61,736 nucleotides of DNA, filler included, from Sandaracinaceae bacterium (GCA_947483975.1; 3 parts of 3 records of this genome joined end to end with filler, not necessarily neighbours in it), one strand, 5' to 3'. Shown: positions 3,001-12,000, counted from the first letter of the whole stretch. Numbers: made by a program.

Positions 3001-6000
3001 CCGATCTCGGCAGCGCAGACCTCGGCGCGACCGATCTCGGCAGCGCAGACCTCGGCGCGAACGACCTCGGCAGCGCAGACCTCGGCAGCGCAGACCTCGG
3101 CAGCGCAGACCTCGGCAGCGCAGACCTCGGCCCGACGAGCGATGCGGGCCCGCTCGCCGGCTATCGGCACACGATCACCATCGACGGCGTCAACGACTTC
3201 GACGCGGCGCCCGAGCGCTTCGACACGACGACCGCAGGATATTCGCTCTACGTCAGCTGGGACGCGGACGCGCTCTACCTCGGCGCGAACGGTCCGGACA
3301 TCGCGTCGGGCGGCGCGACGAAGTGGCTGCTCTTCTACCTCGACACCAACGGTGCGGGCGCCGGGTCGAGCGTCGGCGTGACGTACAACACGCAGACTCC
3401 GGCGCTCCCGGCGGGCTTTTCGGCCGACTTCGTGTTCCGCTGGCGGGCGGACAACACCTTCCAGAGCCTGCAGCGCTGGGACGTCACGACGTCGACGTGG
3501 GTCGAGACGACCGTCGCGCCGACGACGTTCCAAGCGGGCACGTTCGTCGAGACGCGCCTCCCGCTGATCGAGCTCGGCGCACCGACGACCATCGGCATCG
3601 CCGCGCTCATGCTCAACGAAGCCGCGGGCGTCGAGTTCTCCTACTCGGGAATGCCGAGCGGGACGTTCGCGGACGGCTACCACGCGACCATTCCGATGAC
3701 GCGCTGGCTGTCGGCGAACCGAAGCCTCACCGCCAATCCGAACGACGCGAGTCGCCTGCGGCCCTGAGGGCGCGCTTGTCCCGCGCGAGCGGCGCGTGGT
3801 AGCTTTGCCCTGTTTTTCAAGGCGAACGCTGCCGCGCTGGACGCGGCTCGAGGAGGCCTCGTGGACCGACGCTCGGATTCGCTGCTGCCAGACCTGAGGT
3901 CGCGCGTGTTGCGGTTCGGGGTCGAGTGGGGAGAGGCGACGGGAAGGCCGCTCGCGACCGCGCGCGATGGGCTCGACTTCCTGACGGCGATGAAGTCGCG
4001 CGACGACTTCTGGGACGCCCTCGCCGCGGACGGTCCGGGCGGCACACCGCTGCTCGACACGGCGGCTTTGCGCGAGGCGCTACCTGCCGACGCGCCTCCG
4101 CAGGAGACCGCGTCGGAGGATGTGCTGCGCTCCCTCGGCCTCGCGGAGGGCGAGGTCATCGCGGTGCTGACGGGCCTCGACGAACCACCCGGACTCGATG
4201 ACGCGATCCGCGCAGCGTTCGCCGAGAGCACCCCGCAGAAGGTCGCGCGCGCCCTCGAGCGCGTCCTCGACACCGACCGGAATGTCCTCGCGACCGAGCA
4301 ATACGTGCGCCGCCTGCCAGAGTCCGCGGGGGTCGGGCGCTCGCTCGGCGTGCTGATGGGCACCGCCGTCCTGCTCGTCGGCACCACGCTCGGCGCCTGC
4401 GTCGCGCGCTGCGGGGCCCCGCAGAGCGCGCCGACGCCGCGCACCTCGCAGCAGACGCCGACGACGCCGGAGACCGCTCCGAACCCGGGAGCAGGAGCAC
4501 AGTCGACGCCTGAGCCGACGCCCCCCGAGCCGGCTCCTCCAGAGCCCACGCCGCCCCCACGTCCCTATCCGCCGCCGGGCCCCGCGCCCGCCTACAAGGG
4601 CGTGAGCCCGCGTCGCCGAGGAGCGCTCCACCCATGAACACGTTCTCCGCTGTTCAGCTCGAACGCCTGAAAGTCCACGTTCTCCCGTTCGGTGCAGAGT
4701 GGACGAGCACGACGCGGCGACCGCTCGCCACCGTGCGCGACGGGCTCGACTTCCTCGCGTCGATGAGGGCGCGCGGAGACTTCTGGGCGGGCCTCGCGCC
4801 GACGAGCCCGGAGGACACCTATCCGCTCGATCTCGCGGCCCTGCGCGAGCTACTGCCGAGCGCGCCGCTCACCTCGGACGTCGCTGCAGAGGATTTCCTG
4901 CGCGCGCTGGGGCTCTCCGACAGCGAACTCAGCGAGCTCGTCACGGGCCTCGACGAGCCCAATTTCTTCGACCTCGCGATCCAAGCGGCCTTCGCGGAGA
5001 CGCGCCCGCAGAGCGTCGCGCGGGCGCTCGAGCGCATCCTGCAGACGAACGCGGACGTGCTCGCGACGCAGTGCTACGTCGGCCGCGTCGCGACCTCGCG
5101 CGGCCTGGTCCGCACCGTCGGCGCGATGATGGGAGTCGCCCTCTTGCTCGTCGGCACCGCGTGCCCTCCGCAGAGCAGCCAGCCGACGCCGCAGCCCACG
5201 CCAGGCCAGGGCTCGGCGACCTCGGGTGCATCCTCGACGCCGACGCCGACCCCACAGCCGCCGCCCGACCCCGCGTCCGGCGCGACGACGCTCACTCCCG
5301 TCGCGCCCACGCCGCCGACGCCCGCGCCTGCGAACCCGCCGGCGCAGCGACCGCACCCGCCCCCGAGTCCCGCCCCCCGCTACAAGGGCGTGAGCCCGCG
5401 ACGGCGGACCGCCGCGACGCCCACCTGAGCGCGTCAGCGATGGAACGACCTCCGCGCATGACGGCGTGCTCTCCAGGCCAGACGTCGTTCACCCGCCCGC
5501 TCGCACTGCGACACGTCGACCGCGCGCCGGAGCACTTCGTCTGGGAGCTGACGAACGCCTGCAACTTGAACTGCGTGCATTGCGAGAGCGAGTCTGGGCC
5601 TGCGCGCGAGTCGGAACTCTCGACGGAGGAGGCGCTCGCGCTCTGCGATGACCTCCTCGCGCTCGGCTGCAAGGTCGTCAATCTCTCGGGCGGTGAGCCA
5701 TTCCTGCGCCCGGATTGGCTGCAGATCTGCGAGCGCTTGGTCGCCCTCGGGCTCGAACCGATACTCGTGTCGAACCTCACCATCGCCAACGCGGAGCACT
5801 TCGACGCGCTCGCGCGCCTCGGCGTCGAGTGGATCGCGACGTCCGTCGATGGCCCGCCGGAGGTCCACGACCGAATTCGCCGCACCCGAGGTGAGCCGTT
5901 TTCGCCCTTCGCCCGCACGCACGCGACGATCCTCGACCTCAAGGCGCGCGGCTTCAGCGTCGCGGTCATCACGCACATCAACCTGTGGAACCTGCCGCAC

Positions 6001-9000: not shown

Positions 9001-12000
9001 GGACCTCGGCTACCTCTGACGCGGCGCAGAGACACGCGCGTTCAACGGTGATGTCGGCGCGCTCGTTGACTTCAATTCAGCCCTCCGGCAGCCTCGCCAA
9101 CGGTTTCGGAAGTTCTCGCGTCCCGCGCCCATCACGAGCCACTCCATGCCCGCCTCCGTCGACCTGCCGTCCCGCACCACGGTCATCGAACGCTTCAAAG
9201 GCCAGGGCGGACGCATCGCCGCGGTCCTGCCGATTCACTATCCGCGTGCGCTCTTTCGCGCGTTCGGGATGCTGCCGATCGAGGTCTGGGGCCCGCCCGG
9301 CGTCGACAAATCCACGGGCGACGCGCACCTGCAGGCGTACGCGTGCAGCACGGTGCGCGCGGGGCTCTCGTTCATCTTGAGCGGCGCCGGCGAGGTCGCC
9401 GACGCGATCCTCGTGCCGCACACCTGCGACTCACTGCAGGCGCTCGCGAGCGTGCTGCTCGACTTCACGAAGCCGCACCAGATGGTCCTCACGCTCTATG
9501 TTCCGAAGGCCGAGCGCGCGTCGGACCTCGAGTTTCTCGGCAAGGAGCTGCGGCGCGTGTTCGGACGGCTCGTCGAGCTGACGGGCCAGCGGCCGACCGA
9601 CGCGGAGCTGCACGCCGCGATGGACCGCGAGCAGCAGGCCGACGAGGTGCTCGCGCGACTCCTGAGCGAGCGCGGCAAGCTCGGCGTCGGCAACCGCGAG
9701 TTCTACGGGGTCGTGCGCAGTCGGGAGTACTTGCCGGCCGAGGAGTTCGCCTCGCTCGCGCGCGCCGCCCTCGACAAGTGGGCGGGAGCGCCGTTGCCGA
9801 AGCGCACGCCGATCCTCGCGACGGGAATCATGCCTGAGCCGATGGACGTGCTCGACGCCCTCGACGAGGCGGGCTTGTCCATCGTCGCGGACGACTTCGC
9901 GGGGAGCGGGCGGCGCCTCTACAAGGCGTCGACGGCGCGCGACCCGTTCGACCGAATGGCCAAGACGCTGCTCTCGGGCTCACCCGATCCGACGCGCGGC
10001 TGCGGCATACAGCCGCGCATCGATCACCTCGTCGACCTCGCGAAGCGCACGGGGGCGAGGGGGGCGCTCTTCTACGAGATCAAGTTCTGCGAGCCAGAGG
10101 CGTTCTACGTGCCGCTCGTCACGCGCGGGCTCCAAGCCGCGGGCGTTCCCTGCCTCGCGGTCGAGGTGGACATCACGGACCCGATGCCGGATCAGCTCGT
10201 CACCCGGATCGAAGCCTTCGCAGAGAGCCTCTCATGAGCATCCCCGGTCAGCTCGCCTATCAGCTCAACGTCAACGTCCTCGGCAAAGCCGCGCTCCGCG
10301 TTCAGCGCTGGCAGCTCGAGCGCAAGCTCTCGAAGCCCGGCACCTGGAAGCACGAGACGCTCAACGCGCCCATCGACACCGCCCCTTGGCTCAAGGAGCT
10401 GATCACCAAGCATTACCTGACTGGGCGCTACGCCAACGGCGCGCGCAAGGTCGCGTGGGTCACCTCGGGCGCGCCCGTCGAGTTCCTCAAGGCGCTCGAC
10501 TACTTCCTCATCTATCCCGAGAACCACGGGGCGGTGTGTGGGATTCGCAAGGTCGGCGAGGAGATGTGCACGCACGCCGAGGACTTCGGCTATTCGCGGG
10601 ATATCTGCTCGTACGCGCGGTGCGATATCGGCTCGGTGTTGTCGGGCAAGACGCCTGTCGGGCGCCTCCCGAAGCCGGACCTACTCCTCTGCTGCAACAA
10701 CATCTGTCAGACGGTCCTCTACTGGTATCAGGTGCTCGCGCATCACTTCGGCTGTCCGCTGATCGTCATCGACACTCCGTTCATCTACGACGAGGCGCGC
10801 GAGCACGACATCGCGTCGGTGAAGCGCCAGATCGAGGACGCGTTCCCCATCGCCGAGCGCGTCGCGGAGAGGACGATCGAGCCGAAGCGCCTCGAGGACG
10901 TGATGCTGCGCAGCCGCGACGCGGTGGACCTCTGGCTCAAGGTGCTGCAGACGGGGCGCAATCATCCCTCCCCGATCACCGCGTTCGACGAATTCATCCA
11001 CATGGCGCCCATCGTCGAGATGCGCGGAGAGTCCGCGACGGTCGACTACTACAGCGCGATGCTGAGCGCGCTCGAGCAGCGGGCGAAGGACGGCGTCGGC
11101 GCGCTGAAGCACGAGAAGAAGCGCATTCTCTGGGACAATTTGCCCATCTGGTACCGCATCCGGCCGCTCGGCGAGAAGCTCGCGGAGCATGGCGTCGCGA
11201 TGGTCGCGTCCACGTACACCAACGCTTGGGGCGAGCTCGCCGAGCTGATCAACGCGGACCATCCGATGGACTCGATGGCCAAGTGCTACCTCCATCCGAT
11301 CCTCAATCGGGGCACCGGGCACAAGCTCCAGACGATGCAGAAGATGCTCACCGAGTACGAGGCCGACGGGGTCATCTTGCACTCGGATCGCTCGTGCAAG
11401 CCGTACTCGATTGGGCAGATCGACCAGCGCAACGCGGTGTCGGACAAGCTCGGCAAACCCGCGCTGCTGCTCGAGGCCGATCACACCGACGGGCGCGCGT
11501 ATTCGGTCGAGCAGGCGGACACGCGCATCTCGGCGTTCCTCGAATTGCTCGGAGTCTGATGATGGCGAACGTCGTCGCGCTGGGCTTCGACATCGGCTCT
11601 TCGACGGCCAAGCTCGTCGGCGTCACCGCGGACGGCAAGCTCGCGTTTCACCGCATCGAGCCGACGGAGCCGCGGATCGAGGATCAGGCGACGCGTATGC
11701 TCGCAGAGGCGCGGGCGGCGCTCGGCGGCGGCGCGCTCCCCGTCGTCGCGACGGGCTACGGGCGCAAGCTGATCCCAGGCGCCGACCGCGCGGTCACGGA
11801 GATCACCTGCCACGCGCGCGGCGTGTGGGAGGCGATGGGCACGCCGGGCACGCTCGTCGACGTCGGCGGGCAGGACAGCAAGGTCATCGTGGTCGGCGCC
11901 GAGGGTCGCGTCGCGAACTTCGCGATGAACGACAAGTGCGCCGCGGGCACCGGGCGCTTCCTCGAGGTGACGGCGGCGCGCCTGCGCATCCCGATCGACG

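What a model noticed while it worked through the whole genome (the two positions that open the first line are those of the whole stretch)
3861..9019. New RiPP-like system: membrane-tethered precursors ending in an invariant YKGV(S/T)P motif with a pair of splicease-rela [...]
Two tandem unannotated proteins (g01186, g01187) are built as a ~150-aa N-terminal domain, a hydrophobic segment ending in a lipobox-like Cys, a variable Pro/Thr linker and a C-terminal YKGVSP-RRR. They lie in an operon with two radical SAM/SPASM enzymes (g01188, g01189) whose best families are the tyrosine-targeting Nif11/GDL/lipoprotein maturases, plus a sulfatase-fold protein. I propose a new peptide/protein-modification system whose target is Tyr-Lys-Gly, not the Tyr-Gly of known spliceotides.
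Evidence so far: YKGVSP invariant in 18 of 18 close homologues while the linker is unconserved; YKG(V/I) in 32 of 36 distant cluster representatives, most at the C-terminus. In 5 of 6 metagenome loci the precursor(s) stand directly before g01188-like (77-81% id) and, where the contig reaches, g01189-like enzymes and the sulfatase (2 of 6; calls 63, 67). Best NCBIfam hits TIGR04103/TIGR03913/TIGR04133, far below cut-offs; precursors hit no family.
(Added by a program. Inside this text positions count along the whole contig: they may not be those of the stretch shown here. "Call 12" and the like, gene names such as g00115 and contig names such as C1 are that model's own, and its searches are not shown. 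The text may have been shortened before it was handed on; [...] marks where a part breaks off. The agent that wrote the report below was given it as the finding of a first reader that could run no searches.)

Follow-up and report, generated by a model that had tools for sequence, protein, structure and literature searches.

The report
Two-enzyme tyrosine-editing lipoprotein system
A small, previously undescribed gene cassette appears to use two related iron-sulfur radical enzymes to chemically edit a conserved Tyr-x-Gly-Val tip on a protein that is then probably lipid-anchored in the cell envelope, which makes it a good candidate for new peptide-modification chemistry.

Summary
The operon is real: two precursors, two intact radical SAM/SPASM enzymes and a sulfatase-fold protein, in conserved order in other genomes. 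YKGVSP is invariant in 19 of 19 close rows. Across 53 precursors, 52 end in Tyr-x-Gly-Val/Ile with x = K, R, A, L, I, M or V, so Lys marks one branch only. In 47 a Cys closes the hydrophobic helix, 45 with Ala/Gly/Ser before it (lipobox-like). The linker to the motif runs from 0 to over 200 residues. The enzymes form two co-inherited lineages outside the single-enzyme splicease clade. The sulfatase-fold protein has Thr where formylglycine forms, so the enzymes are not sulfatase maturases; it was seen only in genomes with Lys-type precursors. Best model: cytoplasmic editing at the Tyr (splicease-like tyramine excision, about even odds) plus a second step, then export as a lipid-anchored RiPP. 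Against novelty of the motif: uncharacterised single-enzyme relatives also have non-Gly after Tyr. Not a member of the XYG spliceotides as defined. Chemistry untested. The scan noted single-enzyme lipoprotein relatives before on other DNA, not this pair.

The parts
3850..3856 (+). Shine-Dalgarno-like GAGGAGG before precursor 1
   Evidence: sequence
3861..4637 (+). Precursor 1 (258 aa): helical N-domain, hydrophobic helix, lipobox LGAC180, Pro/Thr linker, YKGVSP
4398..4400 (+). Lipobox Cys180 of precursor 1 (fits the canonical pattern)
4593..4610 (+). YKGVSP core of precursor 1 (predicted modification site, Tyr245)
4634..5428 (+). Precursor 2 (264 aa), about 51% identical to precursor 1; all-helical N-domain residues 6-152, helix 158-173, disordered tail
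5162..5164 (+). Lipobox-like Cys177 of precursor 2 (GTAC; fits only the relaxed pattern)
5381..5398 (+). YKGVSP core of precursor 2 (Tyr250)
5440..6627 (+). Radical SAM/SPASM enzyme 1 (395 aa; CxxxCxHCE type; SAM-cluster and SPASM cysteines intact; no N-terminal RRE extension)
6636..7766 (+). Radical SAM/SPASM enzyme 2 (376 aa; CxxxCxHCGS type; closest to spliceases in conserved columns)
7763..9019 (+). Alkaline-phosphatase-superfamily (sulfatase-fold) enzyme, 418 aa, Thr48 at the nucleophile position, metal-ligand Asp9 and Asp-His kept
7904..7906 (+). Thr48 codon: aligns with the Cys/Ser that becomes formylglycine in sulfatases

Best explanation
A splicease-related, two-enzyme maturation system for envelope lipoproteins. 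(1) The precursor is made with a ~120-175-residue cytoplasmic leader domain, an internal signal helix with lipobox Cys, a spacer of any length and a C-terminal Tyr-x-Gly-Val core [anatomy shown]. (2) The cassette's radical SAM enzymes act on that core in the cytoplasm [substrate relation inferred from gene order and conservation, ~0.9]. (3) Enzyme 2, the more splicease-like, attacks the Tyr and most likely excises a tyramine unit, leaving an alpha-keto-beta-amide of the preceding residue [inferred from descent, ~0.5]; enzyme 1 makes a second, different change at the invariant Gly or Val [inferred, ~0.5]. (4) In the Lys branch a Thr-nucleophile phospho/sulfo-group enzyme adds or removes a group, probably on the Lys or the modified core [inferred from co-occurrence, ~0.4]. 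(5) The edited tail is exported, the Cys is lipidated by Lgt and the leader cut off by LspA, leaving a lipid-anchored modified peptide, displayed on a Pro/Thr stalk in this genome [inferred, ~0.7]. A keto-amide tip would most plausibly inhibit proteases at the envelope.
For: Motif in the last 30 residues of 52 of 53 precursors vs 16 of 4721 background ORFs; synonymous codons vary, Ser by both AGC and TCC. Of 15 regions fetched from precursor hits, 13 have the motif and an adjacent enzyme, and the 2 without enzymes also lack the Tyr. Short precursors ending ...LTAC-YKGVTP stand before 59-62% identical enzyme 1, and in L016 before enzyme 2 (55%) and the sulfatase-fold gene (51%). Cys after the helix in 47 of 53, Ala/Gly/Ser at -1 in 45 of 47, canonical box in 22; two Cys-less members show an A-x-A stretch there instead (my reading). 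Host has LspA and Lgt. Enzyme 1 lineage 95/95, single-enzyme clade 93/88, sub-branches of the two enzymes mirror each other. TIGR04103 and TIGR03913 give the best E-values over all 17 and 42 aligned members. Of 64 columns conserved in the single-enzyme clade, Lys-type enzyme 2 keeps 56, enzyme 1 49, outgroup 28. Tyr followed by Met, Ala or Lys occurs beside single-enzyme relatives, so Tyr is the shared anchor. An engineered PlpXY tag ends YGVVFPG (PMC10533398 Table 1); a long-type core ends YKGVAFPG. Cytoplasmic editing followed by Lgt/LspA processing is shown for MNIO RiPPs (PMC13056109).
Against: No chemistry tested. Scores are a third of the family cut-offs, and full-length similarity can mislead for these enzymes (StsB vs MftC, PMC10288494 abstract). 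A Glu conserved in the single-enzyme clade (GIES) is lost in enzyme 2 and most enzyme 1. The enzyme 2 lineage has weak support (64/73); the outgroup was only 3 rows. All characterised splice sites in the papers I read are XYG. A 160-residue segment before a lipobox is unusual (own knowledge); 6 of 53 lack the Cys, and 25 of 47 miss the strict box. Some loci have one enzyme only (L052, L053, L090) or a broken copy (L055, L082, L088, L091). Short-type and long-type precursors are only weakly alike (hhalign probability 22%), so their union rests on the enzyme tree, motif and layout. Sequences are related, not independent.
Confidence: 0.45

Rival explanations
1. Cross-linking, not excision: one enzyme joins the Tyr ring to the Gly two residues on (an i,i+2 cyclophane through Gly C-alpha), the other modifies the Val (for example cyclopropane or epimer). 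Export and lipid anchoring as in the best model.
For: Invariant aromatic, variable middle, invariant third residue is the triceptide pattern (PMC11002830 passages); Gly C-alpha is a radical SAM acceptor in StsA (PMC10288494 passages); Val-to-cyclopropylglycine by TvgB occurs in a Thr-Val-Gly-Gly repeat; Gly 52 of 52, Val/Ile 52 of 52; the splicease-clade Glu is lost.
Against: Described triceptide links go to C-beta, which Gly lacks. No cyclophane-forming family is among the 25 best NCBIfam families except distant WgkB. The enzymes group with spliceases.
Confidence: 0.25
2. One reaction, two subunits: the pair is a heteromeric splicease (one catalytic, one activating or positioning) that makes an ordinary keto-amide at a relaxed Tyr-x site.
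For: Non-Gly after Tyr is common beside single-enzyme relatives. In the hydrophobic-x branch enzyme 2 has Thr for the aromatic residue of the CxxxCxxC motif. Type I spliceases need an activator protein (PMC11414181 parts 1-2).
Against: Both enzymes keep all cluster cysteines in the window's branch; one genome splits them over two loci, each with its own precursor (L052, L053); single-enzyme relatives manage Y-non-Gly precursors alone.
Confidence: 0.17
3. The precursor stays an uncleaved single-pass membrane protein; the Cys is not lipidated and the N-domain is a lasting cytoplasmic part (sensor or scaffold).
For: Long domain before the helix; 6 of 53 lack the Cys; only 22 of 47 strict lipoboxes.
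Against: Ala/Gly/Ser at -1 in 45 of 47 across both precursor types; related single-enzyme precursors have plain short lipoprotein signals.
Confidence: 0.1
4. The enzymes mature the neighbouring sulfatase (anSME-like) or form an AhbC/AhbD-like cofactor pair; the upstream genes are bystanders.
For: SPASM enzymes beside a sulfatase-fold gene; heme b synthase family is third or fifth best.
Against: Thr and Leu replace the Cys/Ser and Arg of the formylglycine motif in all 6 aligned copies at the Thr position; most loci have no such gene; the motif-bearing precursor is beside the enzymes in every locus long enough to tell.
Confidence: 0.03

Closest known systems
Spliceotides: PlpX/PlpY/PlpA, PcpXY, RhaX/RhaA (PlpX is IPR026482 per PMC11002830; that this equals TIGR04103 is recalled)
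   Same: Best-scoring enzyme family; shared WQxQ, GY, GCxAG and GCxS motifs; conserved Tyr near the precursor C-terminus; Gly-Val-x-Phe-Pro after the Tyr in some cores; no RRE fused to the enzyme.
   Different: No XYG site; two enzymes in separate lineages; 189-242 bits against a cut-off of 725; new leader family with signal helix and lipobox; no PlpY-like gene seen; extra Thr-nucleophile enzyme.
TIGR03913 GDL/DUF1843 systems
   Same: Second-best enzyme family; precursors fetched show YGP, YMA and YAA after Tyr.
   Different: Their precursors are 55-70-aa soluble peptides with a single 475-515-aa enzyme; they sit with TIGR04103 in a 100/100 clade apart from this pair.
DAG-RiPPs (DybA/DybH; PMC13056109)
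   Same: Signal helix with lipobox Cys, spacer, C-terminal modified motif; cytoplasmic modification then Lgt/LspA processing.
   Different: Modified by an MNIO at CPACGMG; signal is N-terminal, not behind a 120-175-aa domain; 'rSAM' and 'radical' have 0 hits in that paper's main text.
Uncharacterised single-enzyme splicease-clade systems with lipoprotein precursors (this order; TIGR04133 rSAM/lipoprotein type by name)
   Same: Lipobox, low-complexity stalk, Tyr motifs; Cys directly before Tyr in some (SAC-YG in the window's own genome, TAC-YKG in L016).
   Different: One enzyme, short leaders, usually repeated YGxP/YMAP/YAAP motifs; here one YxGV per precursor and an enzyme pair.
Triceptides (YxdB, YhhB, XncB)
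   Same: Aromatic-x-invariant three-residue pattern, SPASM enzymes.
   Different: Link goes to C-beta, absent in Gly; enzymes not close; short soluble precursors.

Membership tests
Spliceotide (PlpX type) | XYG motif in the precursor core | tested here: not met
   No YG at the conserved core in 53 of 53; one GYG in a variable linker of L054, five others in leader domains
Spliceotide (PlpX type) | Enzyme in TIGR04103 or TIGR03913 above cut-off | tested here: not met
   189/230 vs 725 and 180/203 vs 592 bits; controls L048 and L047 score 853 and 761
Spliceotide (PlpX type) | Enzyme descends from the splicease radiation of SPASM proteins | tested here: inconclusive
   Best families for all members and 49-56 of 64 conserved columns, but outside the single-enzyme clade and with only a 3-row outgroup
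Spliceotide (PlpX type) | Tyramine excision (-135.07 Da) giving a keto-amide | not testable with these tools
   needs co-expression and MS
DAG-RiPP (RiPP-lipoprotein hybrid) | Hydrophobic signal helix ending in a lipobox Cys upstream of the modified motif | tested here: met
   Cys in 47 of 53, small residue at -1 in 45 of 47, strict box in 22 (pattern recalled)
DAG-RiPP (RiPP-lipoprotein hybrid) | Signal peptide at the N-terminus | tested here: not met
   Cys at residue 130-195, behind a folded domain
DAG-RiPP (RiPP-lipoprotein hybrid) | Host Lgt and LspA | tested here: met
DAG-RiPP (RiPP-lipoprotein hybrid) | Diacylglyceryl-Cys shown on the product | not testable with these tools
   needs MS of the membrane fraction
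Formylglycine sulfatase with anSME | (C/S)xPxR motif in the sulfatase | tested here: not met
   TLPSL aligns with SAPSR of 7an1; Thr invariant in 6 of 6
Triceptide | Aromatic-x-residue with C-beta acceptor and a cyclophane-forming enzyme family | tested here: not met
   third residue is Gly in 52 of 52; such families are not among the best hits
Sacti/ranthipeptide | Cys donor at fixed spacing from the acceptor | tested here: not met
   lipobox Cys to Tyr distance 0-214 residues; 6 of 53 have no Cys after the helix. Long-type members do have another Cys 3-7 residues before the Tyr

The most novel reading that the evidence does not exclude
A new RiPP class: two radical SAM enzymes carry out sequential, undescribed backbone or ring chemistry on Tyr-x-Gly-Val (not plain tyramine excision), a Thr-nucleophile alkaline-phosphatase-fold enzyme adds a phosphoryl- or sulfuryl-type group in Lys-type members, and a cytoplasmic domain of more than 120 residues serves as both enzyme leader and n-region of an internal lipoprotein signal, giving lipid-anchored modified peptides as short as Cys-Tyr-Lys-Gly-Val-Thr-Pro-Glu-Leu.
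Probability: 0.35. Interest if true: 0.85.

Novelty: new variant of a known kind. Interest (0 to 1): 0.66.

Why it matters
Spliceases are tools for putting keto-amide and beta-amino-acid residues into proteins, and so far need XYG. A sister system acting on Tyr-x-Gly-Val with at least eight residues tolerated at x would either widen that tool or reveal new radical chemistry; a YG-based mining strategy (as PMC10849128 describes for the 2022 survey) would tend to miss it. It would also extend lipid-anchored RiPPs from MNIOs to radical SAM enzymes and tie a Thr-type sulfatase-fold protein, a large mis-annotated group, to a defined substrate. The cassette is small (4-5 genes) and directly testable by co-expression.

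Tried and rejected
Complex prediction of the L016 precursor with both enzymes: verdict 'no answer' (median 0.63; control with enzyme 1 replaced 0.69; partner-replaced controls 0.00); not used either way. Fold search of the precursor model against 48,161 chains: best Z 5.2, nothing clear. ESM Atlas: no usable hit for a short-type or a long-type precursor. Pfam/NCBIfam: no precursor family. Genome-collection scan with the close precursor alignment: 0 of 51 candidates confirmed. Relatives: 0 true hits in 40 genomes (two weak Pro-rich matches); 1 of 400 same-phylum genomes. Sulfatase-fold model has low confidence at the active site (pLDDT <50 at 17-69) and only returns generic sulfatases. RNA runs: one run holds 0.06 of the words, three 151-nt pieces match without differences; not evidence of transcription. 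Gliding-motility marker for host identity: below cut-off. Rejected: downstream dehydratase/reductase genes as part of the system (not beside the cassette in other loci); Ser/Thr at +4 as the acceptor of the sulfatase-fold enzyme (L053 has Ala there); the lipobox Cys as cross-link partner (spacing 0-214). Paper searches without a description of this system: YKGV + radical SAM: 0; YxG + rSAM + precursor: 0; 0. A recalled DOI gave an unrelated paper (abstract only); a splicease mechanism paper was not held. Scott et al. 2022 (Chem) and its supplements were not seen and could list these enzymes. Earlier scan notes: none by sequence or place.
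Full report
Observation. They lie on one contig; the window itself is three contigs joined by spacers. YKGVSP is invariant in 19 of 19 close rows while the linker is not alignable. 15 of 18 cluster representatives carry YKG(V/I). 5 of 6 metagenome loci show enzyme 1 next (77-81%), 2 reach the sulfatase-fold gene. Background for YxG(V/I) in the last 30 residues is 16 of 4721 ORFs.

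Short forms. Distant homologues are 181-199 aa and put the motif right behind the Cys (LTAC-YKGVTPEL, LAAC-PA-YKGVSPS), so stalk and Arg tail are optional. Two genomes of another class in the same phylum confirm the context: G366 has precursor then enzyme 1 (59%, contig ends), and L016 (= G875) has the whole cassette at 62%, 55% and 51% identity.

Wider family. Searching 401 genomes of the order with the enzyme 1 profile gave 18 genomes. Among them were enzyme pairs beside a longer precursor type ending YKGVSF, YKGVAF, YLGVRF or YAGVRF. A profile of those found 11 of 251 genomes of one family. Of the 15 regions fetched, 13 have Tyr-x-Gly-Val with an enzyme adjacent; the two without enzymes lack the Tyr. 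I counted 53 distinct precursors, after leaving out two fragments (P0031, P0038), one motif-less truncated-looking protein (P0027), the query's duplicate, the gapped L052 copy, the two enzyme-less hits and a second copy in L088: 52 have YxG(V/I) within 30 residues of the end, x = K 39, A 4, L 3, R 3, I, M, V 1 each; the second L088 copy has Asn. Short and long types share only two short motifs; L095 bridges them with a long-type leader, a Pro-rich stretch and YKGVTF. These are relatives, not independent draws.

Envelope targeting. A Cys closes the hydrophobic helix in 47 of 53, with Ala/Gly/Ser before it in 45; 22 fit the strict lipobox (pattern recalled). The host encodes LspA and Lgt. The model of precursor 2 is all-helical up to residue 173 and disordered after (pLDDT 74); it has no strand, so it is not a PqqD-type RRE. 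PMC13056109 (part 1 of 7 and passages) shows cytoplasmic modification followed by lipoprotein processing for MNIO RiPPs and has no mention of radical SAM enzymes in its main text. The signal here is internal, which is the unproven step.

Enzymes. Both keep the SAM-cluster and SPASM cysteines. TIGR04103 and TIGR03913 give the best E-values over 17 and 42 members, and the members shown score far below cut-off, whereas true members score 853 and 761. In a 46-row tree (23 of 69 rows left out as near-duplicates or long branches) enzyme 1 is one lineage (95/95), enzyme 2 weakly so (64/73), and single-enzyme relatives including TIGR04103 and TIGR03913 members another (93/88); the outgroup is 3 rows (quick trees). 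The sub-branches of the two enzymes mirror each other. Both genes are present, whole or broken, in 19 loci by my tally (L010 and L011 counted once); L052 and L053 of one genome carry one each, L090 shows enzyme 2 only, and three contigs end or break within enzyme 1. Enzyme 2 of the Lys branch keeps 56 of 64 columns conserved in the single-enzyme clade, enzyme 1 49, the outgroup 28; a conserved Glu is lost in enzyme 2 and most enzyme 1. Most of those single-enzyme relatives are uncharacterised.

Third enzyme. Thr48 aligns with the formylglycine precursor and Leu replaces the motif Arg; Thr is invariant in 6 of 6. This excludes sulfatase maturation as the enzymes' job. The orthologue was found in 2 of 401 order genomes, both in Lys-type cassettes, and in 1 of 10 genomes tested by handle, unlinked, in a genome with a Lys-type cassette. 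It was not found in 7 genomes with only non-Lys cassettes, nor in 2 fragmented Lys-type genomes. This is suggestive, not independent of descent.

Mechanism. Spliceases excise tyramine at XYG (PMC11414181 parts 1-2 of 4; passages of PMC9811515, PMC11626197, PMC11002830, PMC10533398, PMC8326336). I therefore favour Tyr-directed, splicease-like action by enzyme 2 and a second step by enzyme 1 on the invariant Gly or Val, then export and lipidation (0.45 for the whole). Rivals: an i,i+2 Tyr-Gly ring (0.25; triceptide and TvgB passages; Gly acceptors, PMC10288494 abstract and passages), a two-subunit splicease (0.17), an uncleaved membrane protein (0.1). Shown: anatomy, conservation, gene order, enzyme lineages, loss of the formylglycine motif. 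Inferred: all chemistry, lipidation and function.

Novelty. Nine searches of the open library found no description. The 2022 survey scored YG motifs beside the enzymes (PMC10849128 passage) and would tend to miss this, but I could not see that paper or its supplements. Earlier scan notes describe single-enzyme lipoprotein YG systems and a VYAGP repeat system; none matches this pair by sequence. It works like a spliceotide-related lipid-anchored RiPP but fails membership on the XYG motif and family cut-offs: a new variant of a known kind, with a fair chance of new chemistry.

Noticed in passing
G000:C131:2170-3441 (-) and about 3470-3769 (+): The same genome has a single splicease-clade enzyme divergent from a small precursor with a CxxC..CPFC head, signal helix and SAC-YG-CP; a second such enzyme is at C451:2270-3877 (-) at a contig end.
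   Followed up: partly
window 20924-21023 and 41625-41724: N-spacers with an artificial linker join contigs C50, C52 and C53; gene order across them means nothing.
   Followed up: yes
window 9146-12332: 2-hydroxyacyl-CoA dehydratase/benzoyl-CoA reductase-like subunits plus activator follow the cassette; not seen beside it elsewhere.
   Followed up: partly
window 2826-3767: Lipoprotein-like gene with about ten ADLG(S/A) pentapeptide repeats just upstream.
   Followed up: no
L034:690-2219 (-): Radical SAM enzyme fused to its own lipobox-like helix, stalk and two Cys-rich YG repeats.
   Followed up: no
L032:2594-2992 (-), L033:913-1455 (+), L037, L042, L046, L028: Single-enzyme relatives with YMAP, YAAP, YMGP, YKGP or YKAP motifs; L032 and L033 precursors are soluble two-repeat proteins.
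   Followed up: partly
L013:9098-9805 (-); L093:11834-13183 (+): A sulfotransferase gene (L013) or a type I phosphodiesterase gene (L093) lies next to the sulfatase-fold gene; L013 has a further precursor beyond it.
   Followed up: no
L016: Record title says Enterobacterales, but the locus is 69% GC and the same contig belongs to a genome in the window's phylum; label or binning is doubtful.
   Followed up: partly
L054, L056, L083-L085, L090-L092 enzyme 2: In the mostly hydrophobic-x branch enzyme 2 has Thr at the usually aromatic position of CxxxCxxC and Leu for the Trp of VWE.
   Followed up: no
L082, L094 (G647): One genome has a broken enzyme region and an orphan precursor remnant with His in place of Tyr, as if the system is decaying.
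   Followed up: no
L057:669-2452 (-): An enzyme branching near enzyme 2 sits beside a membrane protein that looks like a CPBP-type protease (recalled motif), with no YxGV precursor seen.
   Followed up: no
long-type precursors, e.g. L087:2883-3755 (-): A small Cys-rich helical domain before the core contains an F-x-x-G/x-T-P-x-x-I-A-x-x-L-E stretch like the one that short types carry in the leader, before the signal helix; possibly a shuffled recognition element (weak scores).
   Followed up: partly
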